Shown here piece by piece: positions 2,780 through 50,463 of a DNA stretch of 64,000 nt (the first letter of the stretch is position 1; each line of letters begins with the position of its first letter). Source of the stretch: a virus (taxonomy: Duplodnaviria; Heunggongvirae; Uroviricota; Caudoviricetes). Below the pieces are notes generated by a model. That model ran no database searches. It was not told where the DNA came from and saw only the letters and a list, made by a program, of their open reading frames with translations. The stretch is from the IMG/VR virus record IMGVR_UViG_2563366840_000001; one strand, 5' to 3'. Made by a program: the position numbers and the translations under genes.

Positions 2780-4699
2780 ATGGAACAGTTCAATATCAAT
2801 AAAGGGGTGACGATCAAGCCTGGGCTTGACGTGCTTCCCCCGCCAGTGACTGATGATGAATATCGCGCATTAATGGCCGGTGAGGACCGCTATCTGATGA
2901 CGGAATCCAACACCCTGGAGGAAATCGAGGCTACGTTCTTCTATGACACGCCGATCCACTGGTGTGCTACGGATTTACTGGAGGCGATTAGTTCTACTCG
3001 TTTGCAGTTACACCGGACCATGCAGGCATTTGTCCGGGCATTAAACCAGAAGCTGAATGGTACCGGAATCTCTGCGGGGAGTGATAAAACGGGGGATGTG
3101 GCCCAGAACGGTGCACGCGCGATCGGCGGGGCTGAAATTGGCCGGGCACGTAACGTTAACGGGCTGCCGGTCCTGCCAGCCATTATTCCGCTCAGTGATG
3201 GTCAGACTATCAGCATTCTGTTTCATAGCCCGACAGCGGAAAACCGGATCACCAATAGCGATACGCTGATTGCTTTCCAGTTCTTACTGAATAAAAAAGA
3301 CGTTACTCATACCGTTGCTCCGATGAGTGGACGTGATATGACGCTGGCGCAGGTCACCATGAAACTTGCCAACCTTGCAGAGAAAAACTCGGCAAAATTC
3401 CAGCGTGCGCAGAAGAAGAAAAAAGCCCTGGTTGATGAAATAACCCAACTACAGGCTGACAGTGACCAGAAAGAGGATGCCATGAGCGACCTCGCGGATC
3501 AGGTGGCAGCGGTAGAAGGGCAGAAGGTAGATCTGGAGCAGAAAATTAACGCTGTTGCATCGGAAGCGGATTCTCTTTATGAAGAGAATGAGCGTTTGCA
3601 GACGGAGATTGATCAGCTCAATCGAACTGGTGGGCGCGAAACCATTGCTCCTGCGGGGATGACTGGTGGACACTCTCGCGCGATGACGGATCGCCTTGCA
3701 AGTATCAAAAATCGTATGCATATGAACGGGGAAGTGACGCTCAGTAATGGTGCATCAATGAAGCAATTCATTGAGGACGGTGAAGGGTATATCCAGTTAA
3801 CCGATTCGGATGGCAGCGTGTACATGATCAAGGCTAAATCCATACAGGGTGTGGACATGGCAGATGCGATCGGCAAGCTGTTTAAAGCCTATAAAGCGGG
3901 TAATGTATCGGAATACCTGGTCCAACCAGAAGAACATAAACCGGAAAACGTCGAACCTGAACCAGCGGAGGATACCGGTAGCTCTTCGCCTGAACCAGAA
4001 GTCTCTGTAGGTGCATATCGATATGCCCTGCAAATGCGTCCGGCGGCCCCTGGCGCAATACCTGAAGGTAACAAAGCAATTCTGCCGCGCCCTGATGAAG
4101 GTGACCCGTATTATGAATATGCACGCTACGGCATTGCTACTTACGATACCCCGCTTTCTGATCAGCAAATGAGTGAGTACGACCTGAAGTTATTGCCTCG
4201 CGAGGATTCTTTCGACTTCTTGGCGAAGACACTTACTAATGGTCCGTTTGGCAAATATGCACAAAAAGCTCTGGAGCTGGCCACCAGCTCACCAGACGAG
4301 TTCCGCGTAATGCTGAAAACTCAGTTTCAAAAAACTTTCCCCAATATTGCGTATCCGGGGGGCGCTGGCACCGAAAAAATGGTGCAGAGCATGATCAATG
4401 CATTGCAGGCCGAAGTCGGTGAGATTACTCAGCCAGAACCTGCCCCGGCACAGCCTGATGAAACGGTTAGCGAAGCAGATGCAGAGGCTAATAAAGCCAT
4501 TGAATATCTCAATAACGTGATGGATATGCAAAGCACTGACATGGCGGAGATCCGTAACGCCCGGGGCAATGTCCGGGAAGCGATTGCAGCCCTTCAGGCT
4601 GCCGGGCGTTTTGAGGAAAACGAAGAGCTGGTTAATGGCGCTGCTCGCCACCTGGCTGATCTGCTGGTAGCAATCCAGAAAGCGGGGGTAGCGGCATGA
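2780..4699 (+). CDS. darA: DarA antirestriction capsid protein
   Basis: 639 aa, size and operon context as in P1 DarA; coiled-coil central region. Confidence 0.85.
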   Translation: MEQFNINKGVTIKPGLDVLPPPVTDDEYRALMAGEDRYLMTESNTLEEIEATFFYDTPIHWCATDLLEAISSTRLQLHRTMQAFVRALNQKLNGTGISAGSDKTGDVAQNGARAIGGAEIGRARNVNGLPVLPAIIPLSDGQTISILFHSPTAENRITNSDTLIAFQFLLNKKDVTHTVAPMSGRDMTLAQVTMKLANLAEKNSAKFQRAQKKKKALVDEITQLQADSDQKEDAMSDLADQVAAVEGQKVDLEQKINAVASEADSLYEENERLQTEIDQLNRTGGRETIAPAGMTGGHSRAMTDRLASIKNRMHMNGEVTLSNGASMKQFIEDGEGYIQLTDSDGSVYMIKAKSIQGVDMADAIGKLFKAYKAGNVSEYLVQPEEHKPENVEPEPAEDTGSSSPEPEVSVGAYRYALQMRPAAPGAIPEGNKAILPRPDEGDPYYEYARYGIATYDTPLSDQQMSEYDLKLLPREDSFDFLAKTLTNGPFGKYAQKALELATSSPDEFRVMLKTQFQKTFPNIAYPGGAGTEKMVQSMINALQAEVGEITQPEPAPAQPDETVSEADAEANKAIEYLNNVMDMQSTDMAEIRNARGNVREAIAALQAAGRFEENEELVNGAARHLADLLVAIQKAGVAA

Positions 4700-40444: not shown

Positions 40445-40997
40445 TCTATACAGGCATGTATAACAACAACGAGCCTATTAGCTGTCAACAACGTTATTTC
40501 CTCAAATAAGAAAAAGCAGAAAACAAATTGTTTAAGGTCACAAATTGTGGCCTTGATGGAGGAGGGAGGCTTATTGGCTATGGCTAAAAATCAAATTAGA
40601 CACTTCATGTTGCTGTAGCTCATCAAGATCCGAGGCCACAAAACCTTTTCCGAAAAACTTCACAAGTAACTCACTAGCCGCATCATTGTCACCTATTACA
40701 CGAAAGTCATACGGCAACGTCGCAAGTTGACGATGTAATCCTGCTGAGAAAGTCGAATCTAACAGCGCCCAGAATTCCCACCGCAGGATAATACTCGCCT
40801 CTTAATACTGTATATATGTTGTTACGATATGTTTTTCTGTCTCTAAAAAAAGATGTTAATAGAATGCTAACCATTGAAGGGGATAAAAATATACAATTCC
40901 AACAAACGTTATTTTTAACAATTTTTTTCTTTGCGTTGACTTTCCCGGACACCTTGTCTGACCGAAGGTGCGCGAAAGCCACTTTTTCCTTCCTGAG

Positions 40998-41006
40998 TTA
41001 TCCACA
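40998..41006 (+). promoter_or_regulatory. DnaA box consensus TTATCCACA in an AT-rich noncoding island
   Basis: Exact 9-mer match; single site, function unknown. Confidence 0.3.
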
Positions 41007-41306
41007 AAGTTATGCACTTGCAAGAGGGCCATTTTCTACATATTGTGGTGGCTAACAGATGAAATGAATGTAGATTAATTGAAGATAAGGAGAAAATTTG
41101 AGATGCAATCATGACGTTAATAGATAGGGTCTGCATTACAGACCCCACCCGCATCAAGGAATTAGCCGTTCCCTGATGTTTTTCCGAAAACATGTGCCGT
41201 AAGCTCACGTTAACGACTTTCATTCACCGAATCCAACTATATAGGGGTTGGGTTTCTACGTCAACGTGAGCAAGTGCACCTTTACATTTGACAAGGAACC
41301 ACCTGA

Positions 41307-41444
41307 ATGAACGCTTTTTTTCAGTTCCTGAGTGCATTTTTAGATGCGCCTATTATTAGCCAGATTCTGGCTATTATCCTCATCATCGTTTTGATTTTGC
41401 TTTTAAGGTCAGTAAAAAATGGAATTATGCACTGGCTTACTTAA
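41307..41444 (+). CDS. Small hydrophobic peptide (45 aa)
   Basis: MNAFFQFLSAFLDAPIISQILAIILIIVLILLLRSVKNGIMHWLT, single predicted TM helix; preceded by long inverted repeats. Confidence 0.3.
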   Translation: MNAFFQFLSAFLDAPIISQILAIILIIVLILLLRSVKNGIMHWLT

Positions 41445-41463
41445 TGTTTCAGTGAAACATTAA
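41441..41463. repeat. 23-bp perfect palindrome TTAATGTTTCAGTGAAACATTAA
   Basis: Overlaps the stop of the small peptide ORF and lies at the end of the convergent minus-strand operon. Confidence 0.6.
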
Positions 41464-41519
41464 AATCTCCTTGATGTGGAAACAATCATTTTCTGTATGT
41501 GCTGGTGGGCACCTGTAGT

Positions 41520-41882
41520 TCAGCTTTCGTTGGCATTTAACTTCGTCTTTGCTTTCTCCACCAGCAACTTCCAGATGCCTATTTCATTAGCAGCCGCCTT
41601 GATGGCGGCATAAAAAGCATCTTGCTGATCGTAACGCTGGATCTGTTTTTTCAGTTTTGCCTCCACCAATTTAATTTCATTACGTGCTTTCTGAAGCCGC
41701 ATCACCGCCCGGTTACGTCTGTTCTTGTATAGCGTGTTAATCTCTGACAATTGCTTTAATTTACCAGCCTGACTGCGGATTATCGCCTCCCTGGCTTCTG
41801 CCGTGCGTCTCATCTTATCTCTTAAGAGTTCACCGTTTTCGATAATTCTTTCAAGGTGTTTGATGTGATCTGCAACTCTCAT
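41520..41882 (-). CDS. Hypothetical coiled-coil protein
   Basis: 120-aa ORF, last gene of the minus-strand operon. Confidence 0.6.
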   Translation of the reverse strand: MRVADHIKHLERIIENGELLRDKMRRTAEAREAIIRSQAGKLKQLSEINTLYKNRRNRAVMRLQKARNEIKLVEAKLKKQIQRYDQQDAFYAAIKAAANEIGIWKLLVEKAKTKLNANES

Positions 41883-42760
41883 ACTTCACCCTCGCTTGTA
41901 TCACCAGCGTCCACCAACGACAATAAAGCCCTAGCCATCTTATGAACCAACAGTGCATCAATAATGCCAAGCGTATGCCCCGGCTTAATGTTTAATGCTG
42001 CCTCAAGATGACACCTTTCCAGACCGCTTTTCTCGGCTTGTTTATGATGATATGGCGTAATAACGTCGCCCAAAACACGGCTAATTCTTTCTCGTAATTG
42101 CTGGGTGCCAGCACACTTGATCGCTGTATCGTGGAGACGGTTAACCAGTTCGCGATAAACATGCGGCTTAATGCGGATACGTTCACCGGTGACGCCCTTT
42201 CCTGGCGCAGGCACCGAACTATCCGGAATATCCGGATAGTTGCCAGCCAGTCTACGCAAAACAGCCTTAATTGCATCAATACGGTCATCATCAACTTTTT
42301 CTACAATATTGGAATTTAAATACTTCGAAGCCTTGCTATGCCAATCGCTGGTTTTAGGGTCTTGTCCATCCATCAAACGCCAAGCTTCAGCGATTAACTC
42401 ATAGCCAGTAACAGTGGCTTCCTGCGCATCACCAATCAGTTGTGTGATCTCTCTTTCAAGCATGCTTAGAGCGTTAGGCATTGGTTTTTCTTCCGGTACT
42501 ACTGGAACGGGGGGAGCGGCGTAGACCTCAATAATTCCATTATCAATAGGCCATTCTCCATCCTTGAGGTAGTCACTTGTGCCGTCAACTTGCTGTTCTG
42601 CAATGTGGAATGCACCTATTGGTTTTGCGTCCAGCGATGCCAGAGCAATTCGTGCCAGTTCTTCCGCTTCTTCTGCTGGCAGTACAACGTTGCTACCAGG
42701 TCCGTATGTTTCGCGCCACTGCTTGATTGTCAGTAGTCGCTCTTTGGTAATAGTGGTCAT
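41879..42760 (-). CDS. Hypothetical protein
   Basis: 293-aa ORF, overlapping neighbours by 4 bp. Confidence 0.65.
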   Translation of the reverse strand: MTTITKERLLTIKQWRETYGPGSNVVLPAEEAEELARIALASLDAKPIGAFHIAEQQVDGTSDYLKDGEWPIDNGIIEVYAAPPVPVVPEEKPMPNALSMLEREITQLIGDAQEATVTGYELIAEAWRLMDGQDPKTSDWHSKASKYLNSNIVEKVDDDRIDAIKAVLRRLAGNYPDIPDSSVPAPGKGVTGERIRIKPHVYRELVNRLHDTAIKCAGTQQLRERISRVLGDVITPYHHKQAEKSGLERCHLEAALNIKPGHTLGIIDALLVHKMARALLSLVDAGDTSEGEV

Positions 42761-43272
42761 GCCGCGTTTCCTTCTTTCTTATTAACAATTACACCGTCAT
42801 ATATTTCATTAAGGTGCCCTCTCAACTCCATGCGCCTTAATGCAGATAACATGTAATCGCATTCAACCTGCTTATTTCCAGTAAATGGCTTATCGTCAGG
42901 ATTACCCCAACAGCAATTACCCTTGGGCCACCCATGTACTTTCCGTACTCTTCCGTTAACAACGTGAAGTAATCCCCAGCCAGGTGGTAAATCCTCAATT
43001 GAAATAATTCCCGGCTCACTAATAAAGAATCGCCAGTCGCCCATTCCAAGAGACGGATTTTTACGAAAACGCTTTTTTCTATCTGCCAACAAGTCAGCAC
43101 GAGAACACTTCGCCTCTATCAGGCATGATGCTGAATTTCTGAATCCCATAGCATCTGGCTGTTCTCCGGTACTGGTTACAGCTATAAAGCGGTCATGAAA
43201 ACAAACCTTGAACCCGTTGCGCTTAAGGAACTTGTACGCAATCTGACAGAGTTCGCGGTGTGTTAACGCCAT
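42757..43272 (-). CDS. Putative PD-(D/E)xK-type nuclease
   Basis: 171 aa with D...EAK arrangement (DAMGF...IEAKCS). Confidence 0.5.
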   Translation of the reverse strand: MALTHRELCQIAYKFLKRNGFKVCFHDRFIAVTSTGEQPDAMGFRNSASCLIEAKCSRADLLADRKKRFRKNPSLGMGDWRFFISEPGIISIEDLPPGWGLLHVVNGRVRKVHGWPKGNCCWGNPDDKPFTGNKQVECDYMLSALRRMELRGHLNEIYDGVIVNKKEGNAA

Positions 43273-43273
43273 A

Positions 43274-43963
43274 TCACTCTCCTTTGATGCGAATGCCAGC
43301 GTCAGACATCATATGCAGATACTCAACTGCATCCTGAACCCATTGACCGCCAATCCCGTAATAGCGATGCGTAATGATGTCGATAGTTACTAACGCGTCT
43401 TGTTCGATTAACTTCCGCAGAAACTCTTCCAGGTCACCAGTGCAGTGCTTGATGACAGGAGTTTTCCCAGGATGGCGAACAACAAGAAACTGATTTCCGA
43501 CTTCACGGACTTCGTTGCTTTCCAGTTCTGCTATGCGCTTACTTCCATCCGCGATTACTCCCTCGTAATATTCACGCTGCTCGTTGAGTTTTGATTTTGC
43601 TGTTTCAAGCTCAACGCGCAGCTTCCCTACCGTTAGCGCAATATCCTCGTTCTCCTGGTCGCGGCGTTTGATGTATTGCTGGTTTCTTTCCCGTTCATCC
43701 AGTAGTGCCAGCACGGTAGCTGGACTGGCTGCTGCGATGAATTCAGCATTGGCCTGCTGTTCCATTTGGAAATCTTCATCGAAACCGCTTTCTGGATGCG
43801 CTCCTTCAATTCTGCAAATGGGAATATATCCAGCAACTTCACGATGAATTAGCGCATCATCACCATCAAATCGGCTCTCTCCATATTCGAGCGACCATAC
43901 ACCACACGTTGCTTTTTCTGCCTTTTCACGCAGTGCCTGATAGTCAATTTTCATACTCGCCAT
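43274..43963 (-). CDS. Ea22-like coiled-coil protein
   Basis: N-terminus IDYQALREKAEKATCGVW typical of the lambdoid Ea22/ead family. Confidence 0.55.
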   Translation of the reverse strand: MASMKIDYQALREKAEKATCGVWSLEYGESRFDGDDALIHREVAGYIPICRIEGAHPESGFDEDFQMEQQANAEFIAAASPATVLALLDERERNQQYIKRRDQENEDIALTVGKLRVELETAKSKLNEQREYYEGVIADGSKRIAELESNEVREVGNQFLVVRHPGKTPVIKHCTGDLEEFLRKLIEQDALVTIDIITHRYYGIGGQWVQDAVEYLHMMSDAGIRIKGE

Positions 43964-44595
43964 CCTTCACAGTTGTAATCACGACATCCTTCAAAATCAT
44001 ATGGGCTGTACTGCCAGGTAATTTTTCCGCAATGCGGACAATTCCAGCGCACCTTACCGCTTCGCGACTTTTTTCTTCTGTTTTGTTTTTTCAACCAGTC
44101 AGGTATGACCAAACCTGCGCCCTGAACCATTGTTCTGCGGTTAAAATTATTGATATTGAACGTCCGGCGCTTTGCTACATCGGCAATGGAAAATGGCAAC
44201 CAAACTATTCCTGGCTCGTTTTTGTTAGCGACGCTAAAGATGGTTGCTTTACTGAAGTCATCTGTTGGCAATCCACCGTGTTGAAGCCAGTAAACATCGT
44301 TGCCGTTCCAGCTACCTTTTTTGTAGGCCACATACGCAGTGCAATCTGACTCAATCAGGCTTTCTGTGGGGATGTACTGGCAATCAACGTGCCACAGAGC
44401 CATTGCATCCACGCTATCAGCGCAAACAGGCTGATCGATATCTCGTCCACAATTCCAGGCTTTTTGGGCTTCTTCCAGCGTGTAAACATGAGCGCGATCG
44501 ATATCAGAACTGTAACCATTGCCGTTATGGCAATGGAATGAGGCGTTATTACCCACAGTTTCACGCAAGCACATCATGTAAAAGCGGTTATTCAC
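43951..44595 (-). CDS. Hypothetical Cys-rich protein with C-terminal zinc-ribbon
   Basis: 214 aa; CPHCGK...C..C motif. Confidence 0.6.
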   Translation of the reverse strand: MNNRFYMMCLRETVGNNASFHCHNGNGYSSDIDRAHVYTLEEAQKAWNCGRDIDQPVCADSVDAMALWHVDCQYIPTESLIESDCTAYVAYKKGSWNGNDVYWLQHGGLPTDDFSKATIFSVANKNEPGIVWLPFSIADVAKRRTFNINNFNRRTMVQGAGLVIPDWLKKQNRRKKSRSGKVRWNCPHCGKITWQYSPYDFEGCRDYNCEGWRV

Positions 44596-44872
44596 TGGTT
44601 GCCTCCGCTTCCCACGTTTTCAGACTTTCACCACAGAACGGGCAAAATGAAACTCGAATAGGCGATTTAGAAAATTCACCAGACCGCAGCATGATCAGGT
44701 CTTGTGAATGAATTAATTCATGGTTATAGATTTTGTATTTCAGCAGACCTTTTCGCGTCGTGTATTCAGCGTCATGCTCCAGGGATTGTGCCAACGCCGC
44801 GCACGGTTCTATCTTGTTGCCATTAATTTGGCATTTTGACTCACTCACTGGTTGCCCCCTGAATACGCTCAA
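44588..44872 (-). CDS. Small zinc-ribbon protein
   Basis: 94 aa with CxxC...CPFCG. Confidence 0.55.
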   Translation of the reverse strand: MSVFRGQPVSESKCQINGNKIEPCAALAQSLEHDAEYTTRKGLLKYKIYNHELIHSQDLIMLRSGEFSKSPIRVSFCPFCGESLKTWEAEATSE

Positions 44873-45422
44873 ACTCTATTACCCACACCCAAGGATTAGC
44901 GTTCCAACTATCTTCGCCATAAATTGATTTCCATAGGCTAGGGAAACCTGGGTAATGCTTATCGCCAATGAGGGTCGATTCTGTTGGTGCGCCCTCAGCC
45001 CTTGCATCGCATTCGCTGATATCGTTCAACCGCTCAACGCGAACGTTGGTAATTTCCAGAAGAATGCGCGATGCCCAGCGCGGCATGTGAATTGATGGCG
45101 TCCACTTTTCTGATACTGGTTTATTACAAACCTCGACCGGAACCCGGTGCGTTTGTTCTGTCCAGGAGTTACGCACGCTTGCGCGATAAACCAGCGTTGC
45201 GACGTCCGTCGCTTTGCCATGTACCCGGTAGGTTTCGCGAACCCAAATACGATCGCCCGGTTGACCATATGGACAATGCTTGGCAAGCAACTCTGCGGCC
45301 ACTGCCCGTCCATAGAATTTTTCTTCAACAATCCTGCGAGTCTGTGTTTTATTCCCGCCAAGAATTGCCCGGACCATCTCATCGTTAAAAATCATGCCGC
45401 GCTCTTTCACTTCGCCTTTCAT
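44841..45422 (-). CDS. Hypothetical protein, ASCH-like N-terminal region
   Basis: 193 aa; GGNKTQTRR...IWVRETY segment resembles the ASCH fold signature (uncertain). Confidence 0.55.
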   Translation of the reverse strand: MKGEVKERGMIFNDEMVRAILGGNKTQTRRIVEEKFYGRAVAAELLAKHCPYGQPGDRIWVRETYRVHGKATDVATLVYRASVRNSWTEQTHRVPVEVCNKPVSEKWTPSIHMPRWASRILLEITNVRVERLNDISECDARAEGAPTESTLIGDKHYPGFPSLWKSIYGEDSWNANPWVWVIEFERIQGATSE

Positions 45423-45431
45423 GCATCCCCC

Positions 45432-45518
45432 TTACCCATGAGCGACGATGCCGCCAAAAGTGATAGAGAACAGCCAGAAATAGATCGCGGCCATAATGAT
45501 TTTGAATGCCGTGTTCAT
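45432..45518 (-). CDS. 28-aa hydrophobic micro-ORF upstream of the ASCH-like gene
   Basis: MNTAFKIIMAAIYFWLFSITFGGIVAHG with AGGAG SD; downstream of a C1 operator. Confidence 0.25.
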   Translation of the reverse strand: MNTAFKIIMAAIYFWLFSITFGGIVAHG

Positions 45519-45600
45519 ATTTTCAGCTCCTGTGATTGATTGGATACATGCCGCGCCTTGCGGCATGTTTTTATTTTCACTTTCTCTGTTTTAAAAATCA

Positions 45601-45617
45601 ATATTTATTAGAGCAAT
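45601..45617 (-). promoter_or_regulatory. C1 operator
   Basis: ATATTTATTAGAGCAAT, 16/17 to the reverse consensus. Confidence 0.7.
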
Positions 45618-46123
45618 TATTGTTGATGAAGAAGCGCGTTTTCATACTCCCTGACCATTAACGTAAGCACGCCGTGCCTCCTGAAAACACGCGCCACTTC
45701 AATCTTATCTTCCAGCGCGAACGCGATTTTACTTAGACCAATTTTCTTAAGGAGATCAATCTTTGCTGGGCCGTCATTTCTGTCATCGGTGGCAGGACGC
45801 ATAGATAGCAAAGGCTCAGCCCCATTTGTTACGTGCTTACGCAACCAAGCTCGTGTTTTATCCCTGGCTATCTCACAGCGCCCGGTTACAAACCAGAGCG
45901 TGTAAATGCTGGACAACTGGCGCACCATATCAATAACTGGAGTGATGGGAGCATCAGTGTCACAGGCAAGGTTAAACTCGTTCCAGTGCTCTGTTAATGC
46001 ACCTTTGCCAGGTGGTGGAAGTAAATGCAGCCTGTCTTCCGTTGCCTCTGATATTGTTCCATCAATATCAACTATGACGATATACGGACGTTCCTGGTGT
46101 GCGTGTTTATTGAAAATACTCAA
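45617..46123 (-). CDS. HAD-superfamily phosphatase (polynucleotide 3-prime-phosphatase-like)
   Basis: 168 aa with HAD motif I IVDIDGT. Confidence 0.6.
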   Translation of the reverse strand: MSIFNKHAHQERPYIVIVDIDGTISEATEDRLHLLPPPGKGALTEHWNEFNLACDTDAPITPVIDMVRQLSSIYTLWFVTGRCEIARDKTRAWLRKHVTNGAEPLLSMRPATDDRNDGPAKIDLLKKIGLSKIAFALEDKIEVARVFRRHGVLTLMVREYENALLHQQ

Positions 46124-46195
46124 ATGCCCTCCTCATTGGACGAAAAAAATGCTGGTGGGCGCACTCCACCAGCATTAAAAGTGACACTGTAACTG

Positions 46196-47458
46196 TCAGC
46201 GAACGTAAATAGTGCCGCCGTTCTCTTTTTCCCATGCATCGCTACGTGCATAGCAAACATCGAGAAGTCTTCTTGCCGCTGTTTCCTCTAAACCCAATTC
46301 GACAACCAACTGCTCATGACGGCGGGTAACCACATCAAACAGGGTATGCAGCCCTTTAGCTGCCAGATCATCAATAAATTCCGGTTCGAACGGCAGCTCT
46401 GCCTCTGCCAACATAACCTCTTGCGCCCACTCAACTCGACGGACCAGTTCCGGGCGGCGGCTTTCCATCTCTTTACAGATCAATTCATGGAAGAACTCTA
46501 CCCAACCTTCCGGCTGGAACTCGCGGAAAATGGCCAACGGCTGGAAGTTTGGCATCAACCATTCGTTGATCCGGATATCAATGGCATAGCCCATGTCGCA
46601 GCAGAACTGATAAGCAAAGTCCAGCTTAGAAACGATATAAGGACGCTCGTTATTGAACTCTTTAGGCGATGAGATCCCATAAGCCAGGAGGCGCGGGAAG
46701 AAGGAGATTTGCCCTAACGTCGGATGAAGTTTGCTTGCAGGGAAACGGCGCTCAGTAATGCCATACATTTCCTTCTTGAGCGTCGCAAATTTGGCATTCT
46801 CATTAACCAGCGCGGTAACCTCTGCTTTTTTATTAGCAAATGCCACGCGCGCCTCGCTTGCATCTTTAATAGTTTTTTTGAGCTGTTGGTTAAGGTCGGC
46901 AACCTGCTTACGCAGTTCCTGTCGCTCGCTTTTAGCTTTGTTATAGCGTTTCTCAAGGTTAAAAGGATCAAGTTTCATGATCTCTTTATATTGAGATTTT
47001 AGCGTTGAAATCTGTGAGTTCCGCAGTTCAACCATCGCGGTCATTTCATTGAGTTTTGTTTCCAGCTCAATGCTTATACGTTCGGCATTATCAGCACGCT
47101 GGTTGGCGTCATGCGTCGCATCGTCGATCGCGTCCTGTTGCTGGCGTTTCAAATGTTCAATTTCCAGCTGAAGCTCTTCAATTTCTTTACCCTTCAGACC
47201 GAGATCCAACTGCATATTTTCAGCTGCATCTACCAGGGAGTTATGGCTATCAGCTTCTGCGTTATAAACATCAATAAGCTGTGCGTGAAGCATCTCCGCT
47301 GACTGAACCGCATTATCAAAAAAACGCGCTGTGAGGTCATCACAACTAACGCGGCGTTGCGCGGCCCGGATGTTCTGGATAATGGCCGGGATACCGGCAT
47401 TCAGGACGTCAGGGATAGATACATTTTCGATTGATTGGTTTTGTGCTGAAGTGCTCAT
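46196..47458 (-). CDS. Hypothetical protein with N-terminal coiled coil
   Basis: 420-aa ORF; about 230 aa of heptad-rich sequence then a globular C-terminal domain. Confidence 0.65.
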   Translation of the reverse strand: MSTSAQNQSIENVSIPDVLNAGIPAIIQNIRAAQRRVSCDDLTARFFDNAVQSAEMLHAQLIDVYNAEADSHNSLVDAAENMQLDLGLKGKEIEELQLEIEHLKRQQQDAIDDATHDANQRADNAERISIELETKLNEMTAMVELRNSQISTLKSQYKEIMKLDPFNLEKRYNKAKSERQELRKQVADLNQQLKKTIKDASEARVAFANKKAEVTALVNENAKFATLKKEMYGITERRFPASKLHPTLGQISFFPRLLAYGISSPKEFNNERPYIVSKLDFAYQFCCDMGYAIDIRINEWLMPNFQPLAIFREFQPEGWVEFFHELICKEMESRRPELVRRVEWAQEVMLAEAELPFEPEFIDDLAAKGLHTLFDVVTRRHEQLVVELGLEETAARRLLDVCYARSDAWEKENGGTIYVR

Positions 47459-47459
47459 T

Positions 47460-47678
47460 TCAAAGTTCCGTATTAGCTTGTGCTTCGGTCATTTTTCCTA
47501 AGTATGAAGGAGGAAGGACGACGCAATTTGTATCCAGTCCCTCACCTATGGCAGCCTGTAAAATTCTGGCTAAGGTGAGTCTCTTATTGCGATACCTGGT
47601 GATGACATGCCTGATACCGCCGGTCGGCGTAACAAAGGCGATCAGCCAGTAGTGATATTTCCGTCGGAATGGCCACAT
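47460..47678 (-). CDS. Small protein, first gene after the C1-controlled promoter
   Basis: 72-aa ORF with AAGGTG SD directly downstream of paired C1 operators. Confidence 0.45.
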   Translation of the reverse strand: MWPFRRKYHYWLIAFVTPTGGIRHVITRYRNKRLTLARILQAAIGEGLDTNCVVLPPSYLGKMTEAQANTEL

Positions 47679-47692
47679 AGTGCACCTTATAG

Positions 47693-47709
47693 ATTGCTCT
47701 AATAAAAAA
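47693..47709 (+). promoter_or_regulatory. C1 operator
   Basis: ATTGCTCTAATAAAAAA, 14/17. Confidence 0.6.
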
Positions 47710-47740
47710 CGTGATGAGTGTACATCACGTTTTAAAAATA

Positions 47741-47757
47741 TGGAATTATTAGAGCAA
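47741..47757 (-). promoter_or_regulatory. C1 operator (inverted partner)
   Basis: GGAATTATTAGAGCAAT, 14/17; with the site at 47693 flanks the palindrome ACGTGATGagtgtaCATCACGT. Confidence 0.6.
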
Positions 47758-48116
47758 TATTATTCTGATTCTTGCTCAAAAAACGAGCTAATAAGGGGAA
47801 GCCAATCCTCTGACACTTCGCGAGGTCGCGGTTTGCCGTGGAAAAAGATTATTCGGCAGTCTTTTGGTAATGCCCCATTCCCCCTGGAGTAACGCGCGCT
47901 CGCATATTTCGAACCAGGTTCCACAACATCGGCCTTGTAACTTACAAACCATCCCGGATACAGATCCTGAAATGCTGGTGTATCATCACCCATAACCTTC
48001 CGCAAAAACCCCTGATCACCCCAGCATTCAGTAGTAACACAACGAGCAACCCAACCTTCCGGATCTTGCCAGAATGAACCGCCCCGGGTTTCCTGGAGAG
48101 TGTTTTATCTGTGAAC

Positions 48117-49007
48117 TCAGGCTGCCAGATCATCGTTTCCGATGGAAGCATAATAAGCTTTTTCTGCTTCTGCCGGAGGAGTATGGCCCAGCCTTTCCAG
48201 CAATCGTCGATTGTTATACCAGTCCACCCACGTGAGTGTGGCCAGTTCCACTTCTGCACGGTTTTTCCAGCTCTTACGGTGTATTACCTCCGCTTTGTAA
48301 AGACCATTGATGCTCTCCGCCATCGCGTTGTCATACGAGTCGCCTGTACTTCCTGTTGATGCCAGTAATCCGGCTTCCTTAAGCCGCTGTGTGTAGGCCA
48401 GCGATACATACTGAGAACCTTTATCACTGTGATGGACCGTGCCGGACGGTCGACGGGCCCATAACGCCTGCTCCAGTGCATCCAGCACGAATGTCGTTTC
48501 CATGGACGATGAGACCCGCCACCCCACGATGTATCCGGCAAACACATCAATGATGAACGCCACATAGACGAAGCCCCGCCATGTGCTGACGTAAGTAAAA
48601 TCAGCCACCCACAGCTGGTCAGGTCGTTCTGCCACGAACTGACGGTTTACGCGGTCGCCTGCGGCAACGGCTTTCCGGCTGATGGTCGTACGGACCTTTT
48701 TACCCCGGAGAACACCGGCAAGTCCCATAACCGCCATGAGACGTGCCACAGTGCATCTGGCCACTCTGATACCTTCCCGTAACAACTGACGCCAGACTTT
48801 ACGCACACCGTATACCTTGTGATTTTCATCGTATACGCGCTGTATCTCTTTCTTCAGCCAGTCATCGCGCTGCGCACGGGCACTGCGTTTATCCGGATGA
48901 TGTCGCTGTTGCTGACAGTGGTAATACGTTGACGGGGCAATATGCAGTTCGCTGCATAGCGGTCCGACCCCGTACTGCTCACGCAGCTTATCCAGCAGTG
49001 GCATCAT
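48117..49007 (-). CDS. IS3-family transposase OrfB (DDE catalytic domain), expressed by -1 frameshift from OrfA
   Basis: DDE integrase core; frame overlaps the orfA end at the A6 slippery sequence. Confidence 0.9.
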
Positions 49008-49330
49008 TTTTTCCAGAGGCGGTCGAACTCCGCCTTCGCAAAATAAGCGGAAGCCTGGCGAAGGATATCGTTACTGCGGCGCAGTTCACGATTTTCACGT
49101 TCCAGCTCTTTCAGACGCTGACGTTCAGCGGTGGTGAGCCCTCCATCACCGCCCCCGGTATCCCGCTCATGCTGGCGAACCCAGACACGCAGAGTCTCCG
49201 GCGTACAGCCAATCTTTGGAGCAATGGAACAAATTGTCGCCCATTGTGAGTCATATTCGCTCTGACTTTCCAGAACCATACGGACTGCCCGTTGACGGAC
49301 TTCGGGGGAAAAACGAGTATTTTTAGTCAT
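49004..49330 (-). CDS. IS3-family transposase OrfA
   Basis: 108 aa with HTH and leucine zipper; ends WKK at an AAAAAA run. Confidence 0.9.
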
Positions 49331-49770
49331 CCTGTTTACCTCTTTCTCAGGAAGTTTAGTCTCCAGGATTCCCGGGGCGGTTCAGAATGCACTCCAGATA
49401 TGCGCTTTTACACTATTTGGTATCCACAGGGCACCGCTACCACGATATTGTGGATGGTAAAAATCCCTAAGCATGGTGAAGCTGGTTGGTGGATTCTCAA
49501 GGATTGGGCGTATATCACCGGCAATAACCGTGTCCAAATCCAGATAGAACAGATCATCGGTTATATCCGGTCGGAACAACTCGATTTTCGCCCACCAGCC
49601 ACGGCACTTTTGCCACTGGTTGATCAATGGGATAACTTTGACGCCAGGTACATGTAAACGCTTCAGGTCTGTCAGGCAAATAATTTCATAGCCTTTTGGC
49701 AGTTGATTAACCAGCCACTGCACATCGGAAGCGTTATAGTCACCACCAGAGCGAAGAACTAAAGCAATCT

Positions 49771-50463
49771 TCATGCTGCACCATCACCTTTCACTTTCAT
49801 CAATGTCAGGTTTCCGCAAAATACGGCACCAGTATCGATATAATGCTGATTCCAGAATGTCTTCGGGCTTTTCACCAGAGTGTGACCAAAGATAAAACGA
49901 TCTGCGCCCGAAATTTCGCCACCAATATCATCCATCGAATCACTGATACGCTCGCGCGCCCAGACAACGTTGAAAAGCGGCACCTCCTTACCGAATTGAT
50001 ATTCATTATCCGGATAGTCGGCATGGGCTATAACGATAGTTTCTTGCCCGGTGTTCAACTCAATGATATAGGGCAGTCGTCTTACCAACTCCACCAGCGC
50101 CCTGGCTAATATTTCCTGATCAGCGTCCAGCATGAAGAACCATTGACCGCCATTCATTAGCCAGTTATTCACGTTGCCATCAGGACTTAACGCATCAATC
50201 ATCAGCCGCTCATGGTTGCCCATAACCGCTCTGAACCATGGCATCTGCAATAGCTCCAGGCATTTAACATTTTCGGTGCCGCGATCGATAAGGTCGCCGA
50301 CCGATATCAGTAAATCCTGCGCAGGGTCAAAATCCACACGATGGAGTTCGGACATCAGTCTGGTGTAGCAACCATGCAGATCACCAACAACCCAGATATT
50401 CCTGTATTTGGTACCGTCGATACGGTGATAAATTGTGGGTGCCATCATGTATTCTTCAGCCAT
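49771..50463 (-). CDS. Ser/Thr protein phosphatase, calcineurin-like metallophosphatase
   Basis: Motifs GDLHG, GDLIDRG, GNHE. Confidence 0.85.

What the first reader, a model, noticed from the sequence alone, without database searches (positions are those of the whole stretch)
41520..47760. C1-repressed accessory operon rich in nuclease, phosphatase and zinc-ribbon genes
A minus-strand block of ten tightly packed genes starts at a promoter flanked by two inverted C1 operators and has a second internal operator at 45601. It encodes a coiled-coil 420-aa protein, a HAD phosphatase with the DIDGT motif, an ASCH-like protein, two zinc-ribbon proteins, an Ea22-like protein and a PD-(D/E)xK-like nuclease. 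These functions are typical of phage early defence or counter-defence modules, not morphogenesis.
Basis: partly seen in the sequence, partly recalled or inferred. Interest (0 to 1): 0.55.

Follow-up and report, generated by a model that had tools for sequence, protein, structure and literature searches.

The report
Known P1/P7 early operons with swappable cargo
This stretch is the already annotated, repressor-controlled pmgR-pmgS-pap and "hea" gene block of a P1/P7-type phage-plasmid: one gene is needed to build the virus particle, and the rest are dispensable early genes, many swapped in from lambda-like phages, with no match to a known defence system.

Summary
The window is a P1/P7-like phage-plasmid. 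Positions 41520-47760 (minus strand) carry ten tightly packed genes, plus an unlisted 28-codon ORF. They lie behind three C1 operators that are base-identical to P1 Op86a/Op86b and P7 Op(hea).

The block is 98.6% identical to the P7 sht and hea operons, which GenBank already annotates with their operators. It is not one operon. A strong intrinsic terminator separates pmgS from pap, and Op88 heads a second promoter.

- **Protein calls:** Pap is a PNKP-type HAD phosphatase. Upf86.8 is a YqfB-type ASCH protein. Upf89.0 has a PD-(D/E)xK nuclease fold with invariant catalytic residues. The Ea22-like call is solid. Both zinc-ribbon proteins have invariant cysteines.
[quoted passage not shown] No gene matches a known defence family. 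P1 knockouts of pmgS, pap and pmgT/U/V showed no plaquing or anti-restriction defect.
- **Origin of the cargo:** the interior genes are 93-99% identical to the exo-xis ("ea") genes of lambdoid, Stx and P22-like phages. They sit in a documented variable region of P1-like elements.

Verdict: ordinary and already known, with modest annotation gains.

The parts
47742..47758 (-). C1 operator Op86a / Op(sht[a]); contains the -35 hexamer TTGCTC (47757-47752) of PpmgR. The -10 TAAAAC lies at 47734-47729 after a 17-nt spacer.
   Evidence: P1 and P7 GenBank annotation
47693..47709 (+). C1 operator Op86b / Op(sht[b]), inverted relative to Op86a and downstream of the promoter. With Op86a and an inner inverted repeat (47712-47741) it forms a composite palindrome.
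   Evidence: fold -26.9 kcal/mol, z -8.2
47460..47678 (-). pmgR / shtA, 72 aa. [quoted passage not shown]
   Evidence: PMC9024508
46196..47458 (-). pmgS / shtB, 420 aa. Central coiled coil plus a C-terminal globular part. Dispensable in P1.
   Evidence: (phrog_1660)
46141..46176 (-). Intrinsic terminator: 11-bp stem with 6 GC pairs, 7-nt loop, U7 tail. It lies between pmgS and pap.
45617..46123 (-). pap, 168 aa, TTG start behind a GAGGAGGG ribosome-binding site. HAD phosphatase of the polynucleotide kinase-phosphatase (PNKP) type; motif I is DIDGT.
   Evidence: PF25109, 45.8 bits against a cut-off of 27.6; phrog_415; Pnkp1, 4xrp
45601..45617 (-). C1 operator Op88 / Op(hea). It starts at the last base of the pap stop codon and overlaps the promoters annotated in P1 as P1pmgT/P2pmgT.
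45546..45568 (.). 9-10 bp GC-rich hairpin in the 5' leader of the hea transcript. It scores as a terminator only on the + strand. Conserved in P1 and P7.
   Evidence: z -3.5
45432..45518 (-). 28-codon hydrophobic small ORF (MNTAFKIIMAAIYFWLFSITFGGIVAHG) with an AGGAG ribosome-binding site. Not annotated in P1 or P7; called 'membrane protein' in SJ46.
   Evidence: the only variable site among the three genomes is synonymous; pN/pS 0.11
44841..45422 (-). Upf86.8, 193 aa. ASCH-like protein with the YqfB-type octapeptide G-x-K-x-x-T-x-R (G23, K25, T28, R30). Homologous to residues 1-232 of P1 PmgT.
44588..44848 (-). Upf87.4, 86 aa from a GTG start. Small 4-Cys protein (C-x9-C ... C-x2-C).
   Evidence: (phrog_4030 aligns from residue 9 of the longer ORF)
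43951..44595 (-). Upf87.6, 214 aa. Confidently modelled protein with no known fold relative and a C-terminal CPxCG...C...C zinc ribbon.
43274..43963 (-). Ead/Ea22-like protein, 229 aa. Residues 5-148 are the conserved N-terminal and coiled-coil module; the C-terminal domain is divergent.
   Evidence: (PF13935, E 7e-38)
42757..43272 (-). Upf89.0, 171 aa. Stand-alone PD-(D/E)xK nuclease-fold protein with E37, D40, E53 and K55 invariant.
41879..42760 (-). 293-aa mosaic protein. The N-terminal ~90 aa match lambdoid 'DUF551-type' proteins and P7 Upf89.5; the C-terminal 111 aa are P1 PmgU (93%).
41520..41882 (-). pmgV / upf90.8, 120 aa, predicted coiled coil. It is the conserved distal end of the cassette.
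   Evidence: phrog_4403

Best explanation
The region holds two adjacent C1-repressed early transcription units of a P1/P7-type phage-plasmid.

Unit 1. PpmgR has its -35 hexamer inside Op86a, with Op86b inverted about 33 bp downstream. [quoted passage not shown] The unit ends at a strong intrinsic terminator. The PNKP-type HAD phosphatase gene pap sits just after that terminator and is probably expressed by read-through (inferred).

Unit 2. A promoter overlapped by Op88/Op(hea) drives a hairpin-capped leader, a 28-codon hydrophobic ORF and seven translationally coupled genes.
- The first gene (a YqfB-type ASCH protein, equivalent to the N-terminal part of P1 PmgT) and the last part (the PmgU domain and PmgV) form a frame conserved across the P1 family.
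- The interior is exchangeable cargo from the lambdoid exo-xis/'ea' gene pool: a 4-Cys 86-aa protein, an orphan-fold zinc-ribbon protein, an Ea22-like protein, an Hjc/SPO1766-like PD-(D/E)xK nuclease, and the N-terminal module of DUF551-type proteins.

How it works. C1 keeps both promoters shut in the plasmid prophage. After infection or induction they fire early. Except for pmgR, the products are dispensable in the laboratory. They most likely act on nucleic acids or host factors to tune early development and the lysis-lysogeny decision, as shown for exo-xis genes of lambda and Stx phages, rather than forming a recognisable defence or anti-defence system.

Shown here: operators, gene order, terminator, domain and fold assignments, mosaicism, purifying selection. 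Taken from the literature on P1, lambda and Stx phages: the essentiality pattern and the Ea22/exo-xis phenotypes. Inferred: timing of expression, pap read-through, biochemical activities and biological role.
For: - Identity with P7 (98.6% over 86% of the region) and P1, with annotated operators and promoters.
- Operator enrichment: 11 sites against 0.32 expected.
- Terminator between pmgS and pap.
- PmgR essential; pmgS, pap and pmgT/U/V dispensable.
- pmgT-humD is a documented variable region of P1-like phage-plasmids.
- Only 1 of 1294 matching plasmid records shares the full cassette.
- Interior genes are 93-99% identical at nucleotide level to Stx, lambdoid and P22-like phages, with the same Ea22 -> 171-aa -> DUF551-type order between exo and xis.
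- Upf87.4 lies in a P1-like context in only 23 of 80 viral contigs, with varying neighbours.
- P1 pmgT/pmgU are remnants of the larger cassette.
- Domain evidence.
- Pooled pN/pS of 0.09-0.23 shows that the ORFs are maintained.
- Ea22 and other exo-xis genes influence lysogenisation and induction.
Against: - No transcript data were examined here, so promoter use, terminator efficiency and pap expression are inferred from sequence and from the P1 annotation.
- The lysis-lysogeny role is extrapolated from lambda and Stx Ea22, whose C-terminal domain differs from this protein's.
- P1 is a plasmid prophage without Int/Xis, so the exo-xis phenotypes may not transfer.
- Most cassette proteins (Upf87.4, Upf87.6, the 293-aa protein, PmgV, the PmgS C-terminal part) have no function that could be assigned.
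- Hypervariability and early expression are also what a counter-defence island would show.
Confidence: 0.6

Rival explanations
1. Counter-defence island. The early, C1-repressed cassette supplies inhibitors or repair enzymes that neutralise host immunity. Pap would heal 3'-phosphate RNA ends made by anticodon nucleases. The ASCH enzyme would remove a cytosine N4-acyl mark. The nuclease or the orphan-fold protein would antagonise a host system.
For: - Early expression is implied by the operators.
- The cassette lies in a hypervariable hotspot with rapid gene turnover.
- It is enriched in nucleic-acid enzymes.
- Established precedent: T4 polynucleotide kinase-phosphatase repairs tRNA cut by the PrrC anticodon nuclease.
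- Upf87.6 is a confidently folded orphan, as many anti-defence proteins are.
Against: - No homology to any characterised system was found. PADLOC covers defence systems only and gave only coiled-coil noise; no anti-defence library was available.
- P1 knockouts of pap, pmgS and pmgT/U/V were among those with no change in anti-restriction or plaquing, although only Type I restriction on laboratory hosts was tested.
- A lone 3'-phosphatase without a kinase or ligase is not a complete repair pathway.
Confidence: 0.22
2. Prophage-encoded defence or superinfection-exclusion module that protects the lysogen.
For: P1-like elements and other temperate phages often carry defence genes in variable regions (general point). 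A PD-(D/E)xK nuclease is present.
Against: - Both promoters are overlapped by C1 operators, so the genes should be off in the lysogen, exactly when defence is needed.
- No PADLOC family matches.
- The genes shuffle independently rather than as a fixed multi-gene system.
Confidence: 0.04
3. Morphogenetic operon, as the historical names imply (pmg = putative morphogenetic; P7 shtA/shtB = sheath structure and contraction).
For: PmgR is essential for producing joined heads and tails. The P1, P7 and PHROG labels follow this reading.
Against: - pmgS, pap, pmgT, pmgU and pmgV deletions plaque normally.
- The cassette differs between viable P1-like phages.
- The cassette genes are shared with lambdoid and P22-like phages that have unrelated virions.
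- Enzyme-like domains (HAD, ASCH, PD-(D/E)xK) are not structural.
Confidence: 0.06
4. Recombination and repair helper set. The Hjc/SPO1766-like nuclease, the 3'-phosphatase and the partners process branched or damaged DNA ends during early replication and recombination, in line with their position next to exo-bet-gam in lambdoid phages.
For: - Location between exo and xis in Stx phage AU5Stx1.
- PNKP-type phosphatases heal 3'-phosphate DNA ends (established knowledge).
Against: No recombinase partner lies in this operon. No phenotype is known. The genes assort independently.
Confidence: 0.08

Closest known systems
Phage P7 sht operon (shtA-shtB-pap) and hea operon (upf86.8 to upf90.8), GenBank AF503408
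   Same: 98.6% nucleotide identity over 86% of the region, with identical operators and the same gene order for nine of the ten genes.
   Different: The ninth gene encodes 293 aa here and 432 aa in P7 (Upf89.5); the central part is replaced. The upstream gene pmgQ/hdmD is interrupted here by IS629.
Phage P1 pmgR-pmgS-pap and pmgT-pmgU-pmgV (Op86a/b, Op88), GenBank AF234172
   Same: Same operators, promoters, pmgR, pmgS, pap, leader, small ORF and pmgV.
   Different: P1 lacks the five interior genes. Its PmgT is the ASCH gene (47% identity, with insertions) running out of frame into the remnant pmgU, which equals the C-terminal 111 aa of the 293-aa protein.
exo-xis ('ea') region of lambdoid, Stx and P22-like phages
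   Same: The Ea22-like gene, the 171-aa nuclease-fold gene and the N-terminal module of DUF551-type proteins occur at 93-99% nucleotide identity and in the same order. In both settings the region is an early, repressor-controlled, non-essential gene set.
   Different: Here the genes are driven by a C1-controlled sigma-70 promoter on a plasmid prophage, not by pL/N antitermination. The C-terminal domains of the Ea22-like protein and of the 293-aa protein differ. int, xis, exo, bet and gam are absent.
E. coli YqfB, an ASCH-domain N4-acetylcytidine amidohydrolase (PDB 1te7, 9kyf)
   Same: The N-terminal ASCH octapeptide G-x-K-x-x-T-x-R is shared, with K25/T28/R30 aligned to the catalytic K21/T24/R26.
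   Different: Upf86.8 is 193 aa against 103 aa and carries large insertions. The window protein itself has no significant Pfam ASCH hit. Neither activity nor fold was tested.
SPO1766 (PDB 3dnx) and Hjc-type PD-(D/E)xK nucleases
   Different: Sequence similarity alone is not significant (E 0.52). SPO1766 is itself uncharacterised. From memory, not checked here, it represents the DUF1052/MmcB-like family.

Membership tests
P1-family C1-controlled operon | 17-bp asymmetric operator close to ATTGCTCTAATAAATTT, overlapping or flanking a sigma-70 promoter | tested here: met
   Three sites with 1-3 mismatches, against 0.32 chance hits expected in the whole window. They are base-identical to the annotated P1 Op86a/b and P7 Op(hea), with the -35 hexamer inside the operator.
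P1-family C1-controlled operon | C1 binding and repression in the lysogen | not testable with these tools
   Inferred from sequence identity with the operators annotated in P1 and P7.
HAD phosphatase, PNKP type (PF25109) | Profile match above the curated cut-off, and the motif I DxDxT nucleophile | tested here: met
   45.8 bits against a cut-off of 27.6. The sequence reads VDIDGT. phrog_415 'polynucleotide kinase' matches at E 5.5e-56.
HAD phosphatase, PNKP type (PF25109) | 3'-phosphatase activity on polynucleotides | not testable with these tools
No kinase domain is present (168 aa, phosphatase part only).
ASCH domain (PF04266) | Profile match at the gathering score | tested here: inconclusive
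   The window protein gives no hit. Of 55 diverse relatives, 31 hit ASCH weakly, and one (P0490, 49% identical) reaches 21.8 bits against a cut-off of 21.2.
ASCH domain (PF04266) | N-terminal octapeptide GxKxx(E/T)xR | tested here: met
   The sequence reads G23-N-K25-T-Q-T28-R-R30. K25, T28, R29 and R30 are invariant in the family. The motif aligns to YqfB K21/T24/R26 by hhalign (sequence identity of the recalled YqfB confirmed).
ASCH domain (PF04266) | PUA-like beta-barrel fold | not tested
PD-(D/E)xK nuclease superfamily | Restriction-endonuclease-like alpha/beta core fold | tested here: met
   [not shown]
PD-(D/E)xK nuclease superfamily | Conserved catalytic D...(D/E)xK on the core strands | tested here: met
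   E37, D40, E53 and K55 are invariant in 39 sequences. 15 of 39 members give weak Pfam Hjc hits.
PD-(D/E)xK nuclease superfamily | Nuclease activity | not testable with these tools
Ead/Ea22 (PF13935) | Profile match above the gathering score | tested here: met
   130.7 bits against a cut-off of 27, residues 5-148.
Ead/Ea22 (PF13935) | Same C-terminal domain as lambda Ea22, the part proposed to bind a host partner | not tested
   The C-terminal 80 aa differ even from the Stx-phage homologue compared here. No comparison with lambda Ea22 was made.
Zinc-ribbon proteins | Two CxxC-type knuckles with conserved cysteines | tested here: met
   In Upf87.6, C186, C189 and C204 are invariant and C209 is conserved in at least 90% of 48 sequences. 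In Upf87.4, C6, C16, C69 and C72 are invariant in 50 distinct sequences, all at least 72% identical. Metal binding was not tested.
Known anti-phage defence systems (PADLOC-DB 2.0) | Significant match of any gene to a defence-system model | tested here: not met
   Only weak matches appeared (E 1e-4 to 8e-3): the PmgS coiled coil to LmuB/JetC, and the 293-aa protein to PglZ. There were no system-like hits.
Lambdoid exo-xis / 'ea' accessory genes | Homology and shared local order with genes between exo and xis | tested here: met
   93-99% nucleotide identity to more than 400 lambdoid, Stx and P22-like records. The order Ea22 -> 171 aa -> DUF551-type is the same in AU5Stx1.
Phage morphogenetic genes | Required for virion assembly | tested here: not met
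   From the literature, only pmgR is required. pmgS, pap and pmgT/U/V are dispensable.

The most novel reading that the evidence does not exclude
The Op88-controlled cassette could be an early host-RNA/DNA manipulation and counter-defence island. Its conserved lead gene would be a phage YqfB-type ASCH amidohydrolase that strips N4-acetylcytidine from host tRNA (in E. coli, the wobble base of elongator tRNA-Met) or removes another N4-acyl-cytosine mark. Pap would heal 3'-phosphate ends left by anticodon or other RNA nucleases. The orphan-fold zinc-ribbon protein Upf87.6 would be a new type of immune inhibitor.
Probability: 0.12. Interest if true: 0.65.

Novelty: already known. Interest (0 to 1): 0.2.

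Why it matters
As found, it matters little. The operators, the two operons and the variability of this region are already recorded for P1, P7 and P1-like phage-plasmids.

The useful by-products are annotation corrections:
- The 'pmg/sht' (morphogenesis/sheath) labels, and the RefSeq 'DNA primase' label on upf86.8, are misleading for all genes except pmgR.
- P1 pmgT and pmgU are deletion scars of a larger cassette.
- The cassette's lead gene is a YqfB-type ASCH protein.
- Upf89.0 is a PD-(D/E)xK nuclease-fold protein.
- Upf87.6 is a confidently folded orphan.
- P1-like plasmids and lambdoid or Stx prophages exchange near-identical early accessory genes. This is relevant to gene flow in EHEC-type hosts, and the IS629 insertion next door points the same way.

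If any of these genes proved to be a counter-defence factor, the conserved Op88 frame would be a convenient, regulated 'cargo slot' to mine across more than 1000 P1-like plasmids.

Tried and rejected
- PADLOC scan of all ten proteins gave only coiled-coil noise.
- Pfam and NCBIfam single-sequence scans gave nothing for 6 of 10 proteins.
- Single-sequence PDB searches found nothing useful for Upf86.8, Upf89.0, the PmgS C-terminal half and the 293-aa protein. A profile search of the ASCH-like family against PDB also found nothing.
- I looked for conserved gene partners of Upf87.6 in distant prophages (Acinetobacter, Methyloprofundus). There were none; the upstream genes are unrelated to PmgT or Upf87.4.
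- An Rfam scan of 40500-48200 gave no hits.
- A crude search for a P1 late-promoter -22 box modelled on LPhot found none upstream of these genes; the only hit in the block is on the opposite strand inside pmgS, so there is no evidence of late control.
- The GC profile shows no compositional island apart from the IS.
- Two accessory-gene counter-defence screen papers mention neither P1-like phages nor ASCH or Ea22.
- The P1 genome paper (PMC523184) is not held.
- I rejected the single-operon idea because of the terminator and the second operator-promoter.
- I rejected the idea that the cassette is decaying junk, because pN/pS is 0.09-0.23 and the ORFs are intact and coupled.

Full report
**What the window is.**
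Megablast of 41520-47760 against phage records gives phage P7 as the best hit (AF503408; 98.6% identity over 86% of the query). Next come Salmonella phage SJ46, JL22 and other P1-like elements. Phage P1 itself covers 52% of the query. In the P7 record the stretch is annotated as shtA-shtB-pap, followed by the 'hea operon' (upf86.8 to upf90.8), with three 'phage repressor C1' binding sites: Op(sht[a]), Op(sht[b]) and Op(hea). In P1 the same positions are pmgR-pmgS-pap with OpmgRa/OpmgRb (formerly Op86a/b), and pmgT-pmgU-pmgV with OpmgT (formerly Op88). Predicted sigma-70 promoters PpmgR and P1/P2pmgT are also annotated there.

**Check of the observation.**
A search with the C1 operator consensus (recalled from memory, then validated against the annotated P1 and P7 sites) finds 11 sites in the window with at most 3 mismatches, against 0.32 expected by chance. 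Alignments show that the Op86 pair is identical to P1 and P7, and that Op88 is identical to P7 and one base different from P1. The -35 hexamer TTGCTC of PpmgR lies inside Op86a, and TAAAAC follows after 17 nt.

The ten minus-strand ORFs are present. PHROG and P7 coordinates show that the fifth gene starts at the GTG at 44848, giving 86 aa rather than 94. The seven distal genes overlap by 4-13 nt or are separated by 1 nt, so they are tightly packed and probably translationally coupled.

**It is not one operon.**
- Between pmgS (which ends at 46196) and pap (which starts at 46123) lies a canonical intrinsic terminator: an 11-bp stem with 6 GC pairs, a 7-nt loop and a U7 tail. A strong ribosome-binding site and the TTG start of pap follow immediately.
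- Op88 begins at the last base of the pap stop codon and overlaps the promoters annotated in P1.
- Downstream of Op88 come a conserved GC-rich hairpin in the leader (z -3.5) and a 28-codon hydrophobic ORF with a good ribosome-binding site. This ORF is conserved in P1, P7 and SJ46. Its only variable site among the three aligned genomes is synonymous, and pN/pS is 0.11. P1 and P7 do not annotate it; SJ46 calls it 'membrane protein'.
- The architecture is therefore: PpmgR (Op86a/b) -> pmgR, pmgS -> terminator; then pap, probably expressed by read-through (inferred); then the Op88 promoter -> leader, small ORF and seven genes.

**What the proteins are.**

| Gene (aa) | Finding |
|---|---|
| PmgR (72) | No family beyond a PHROG of unknown function. 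In P1 its deletion abolishes infectious particles, gives separate heads and tails, and is complemented in trans. |
| PmgS (420) | Only coiled-coil noise. |
| Pap (168) | Passes Pfam HAD_PNKP (45.8 bits, cut-off 27.6), has the DIDGT nucleophile motif, and matches the PHROG 'polynucleotide kinase' over its phosphatase part. |
| Upf86.8 (193) | ASCH-like, YqfB type; details below. |
| Upf87.4 (86) | Four invariant cysteines (C-x9-C ... C-x2-C) in 50 distinct sequences. |
| Upf87.6 (214) | Orphan fold with a C-terminal zinc ribbon; details below. |
| Ea22-like (229) | Strong Pfam Ead_Ea22 match (E 7e-38) over residues 5-148. |
| Upf89.0 (171) | PD-(D/E)xK nuclease fold; details below. |
| 293-aa protein | Chimera; details below. 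|
| PmgV (120) | Coiled-coil-like; unknown. |

- **Upf86.8.** It has no Pfam hit itself, but it belongs to a very large family of 44,164 clusters at 50% identity.
  - Of 55 diverse members, 31 hit Pfam ASCH weakly, and one (49% identical) reaches the gathering score.
  - The invariant G-x-K25-x-x-T28-x-R30 aligns to the catalytic K21/T24/R26 of E. coli YqfB, an ASCH N4-acetylcytidine amidohydrolase (PMC6972931).
  - A 2026 preprint reports that ASCH proteins of both octapeptide types (GKTR and GKER) deacetylate ac4C in tRNA.
  - Upf86.8 is also 47% identical to residues 1-232 of P1 PmgT.
- **Upf89.0.**
  - It has no Pfam hit.
  - E37, D40, E53 and K55 are invariant.
  - 15 of 39 relatives give weak Pfam Hjc hits.
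- **The 293-aa protein.** Its first ~90 aa match P7 Upf89.5 and lambdoid 'DUF551-type' proteins. Its last 111 aa are P1 PmgU at 93% identity.

**Evolutionary picture.**
- P1 pmgT (the ASCH gene running out of frame) and pmgU (the C-terminal remnant) look like the scar of a deletion that removed the five interior genes.
- Across P1-like elements the interior differs. SJ46 has six extra genes, and JL22 has a methyltransferase set.
- Of 1294 plasmid records with a match, only pJIE250_3 shares the complete arrangement.
- A published survey lists pmgT-humD as one of eight highly variable regions, and pmgR and pmgS among the most conserved genes.
- The interior genes are 93-99% identical at nucleotide level to more than 400 lambdoid, Stx-converting and P22-like phages. 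There they lie between exo and xis, or in the P22 'ea' region, in the same order Ea22 -> 171-aa protein -> DUF551-type protein.
- Module boundaries are conserved while C-terminal domains are swapped.
- Upf87.4 occurs in 80 viral contigs. Only 23 of these are P1-like, and the neighbours vary.
- Distant Upf87.6 homologues sit in early regions of unrelated prophages without conserved partners.
- Pooled pN/pS of 0.09-0.23 shows that the genes are under purifying selection.
- The cassette is therefore a regulated cargo slot filled from a gene pool shared with lambdoid phages.

**Function.**
- P1 in-frame deletions of pmgS, pap, pmgT, pmgU and pmgV were made. All mutants in that collection other than the five essential ones plaque normally, with unchanged anti-restriction. 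CRISPRi also scores these genes non-essential.
- PADLOC gives no defence-system match.
- Because C1 operators overlap both promoters, the genes should be silent in the lysogen (inference). That argues against a lysogen-protecting defence role. It leaves early functions: host takeover, development tuning or counter-defence.
- The only experimentally studied relatives are Ea22 and other exo-xis genes, which are among the earliest transcribed genes. Ea22 favours lysogeny, while others such as orf63 favour lytic growth.
- I therefore favour an early accessory module acting on nucleic acids or host factors and tuning development (confidence about 0.5-0.6 for this role; about 0.9 for the architecture). 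Counter-defence is the main rival at about 0.2.
- 'Not morphogenesis' is wrong for pmgR.

**Comparison and novelty.**
This is the P7 sht/hea region with one recombinant gene, so the finding is already known. New details of limited weight are the ASCH (YqfB-type) assignment for Upf86.8/PmgT, the PD-(D/E)xK fold for Upf89.0, the orphan fold of Upf87.6, the small ORF, the terminator that splits the block, and the reading of P1 pmgT/pmgU as a deletion scar. Interest is low (0.2).

Noticed in passing
window 48006-49381 (approximate ends 48066-49384): An IS629 element (IS3 family; orfA 49004-49330, orfB 48117-49007, GC 0.55) is inserted in pmgQ/hdmD, the gene just upstream of PpmgR. It splits the gene into 49382-49774 (5' part) and 47760-48005 (3' part). 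The insertion would block read-through from the upstream pmgN-pmgQ operon into pmgR. IS629 is typical of EHEC-type E. coli, which fits the near-identity of the cassette genes to Stx phages.
   Followed up: partly
window 45432-45518 (-): A 28-codon hydrophobic small ORF (MNTAFKIIMAAIYFWLFSITFGGIVAHG) with an AGGAG ribosome-binding site is the first reading frame after Op88. It is conserved in P1, P7 and SJ46 but not annotated in P1 or P7. The only variable site among the three genomes is synonymous, and pN/pS is 0.11.
   Followed up: partly
window 47690-47765: Op86a and Op86b, together with an inner inverted repeat (AAAACGTGATG-N6-CATCACGTTTT followed by a T-run), form one long composite palindrome (-26.9 kcal/mol, z -8.2). 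In transcripts arriving from pmgQ it would act like a terminator placed inside the PpmgR control region.
   Followed up: partly
L002 (P1 AF234172) 3360-4429, compared with window 41879-45422: P1 pmgT and pmgU appear to be a deletion scar. PmgT residues 1-232 are the ASCH gene, and PmgU is the C-terminal 111 aa of the 293/432-aa protein. The 'putative morphogenetic' names are therefore misleading. RefSeq labels P7 upf86.8 'DNA primase' and P7 upf87.6 is noted as a 'putative tyrosine phosphatase'; neither label is supported here.
   Followed up: yes
[not shown]
   Followed up: partly
window 45546-45568: A GC-rich hairpin just downstream of Op88 scores as an intrinsic terminator only on the + strand (antisense to the operon), where no + strand gene lies nearby. 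On the - strand it would be a 5' stem-loop of the hea mRNA. Its role is unexplained.
   Followed up: no
window 10575, 14424, 30474, 30557, 31021, 33686, 36992, 52679: Eight further C1-operator-like sites lie elsewhere in the window, as expected for the dispersed C1 regulon of a P1-type genome. I did not examine them individually.
   Followed up: no
L002 (P1) 4435-4654, equivalent to window ~45430-45650: The P1 record notes that the Op88/leader/small-ORF segment is 96-98% identical to sequences downstream of the plasmid-borne Type I hsd loci EcoDXXI and R124/3. This hints at past recombination between this slot and restriction-modification plasmids.
   Followed up: no
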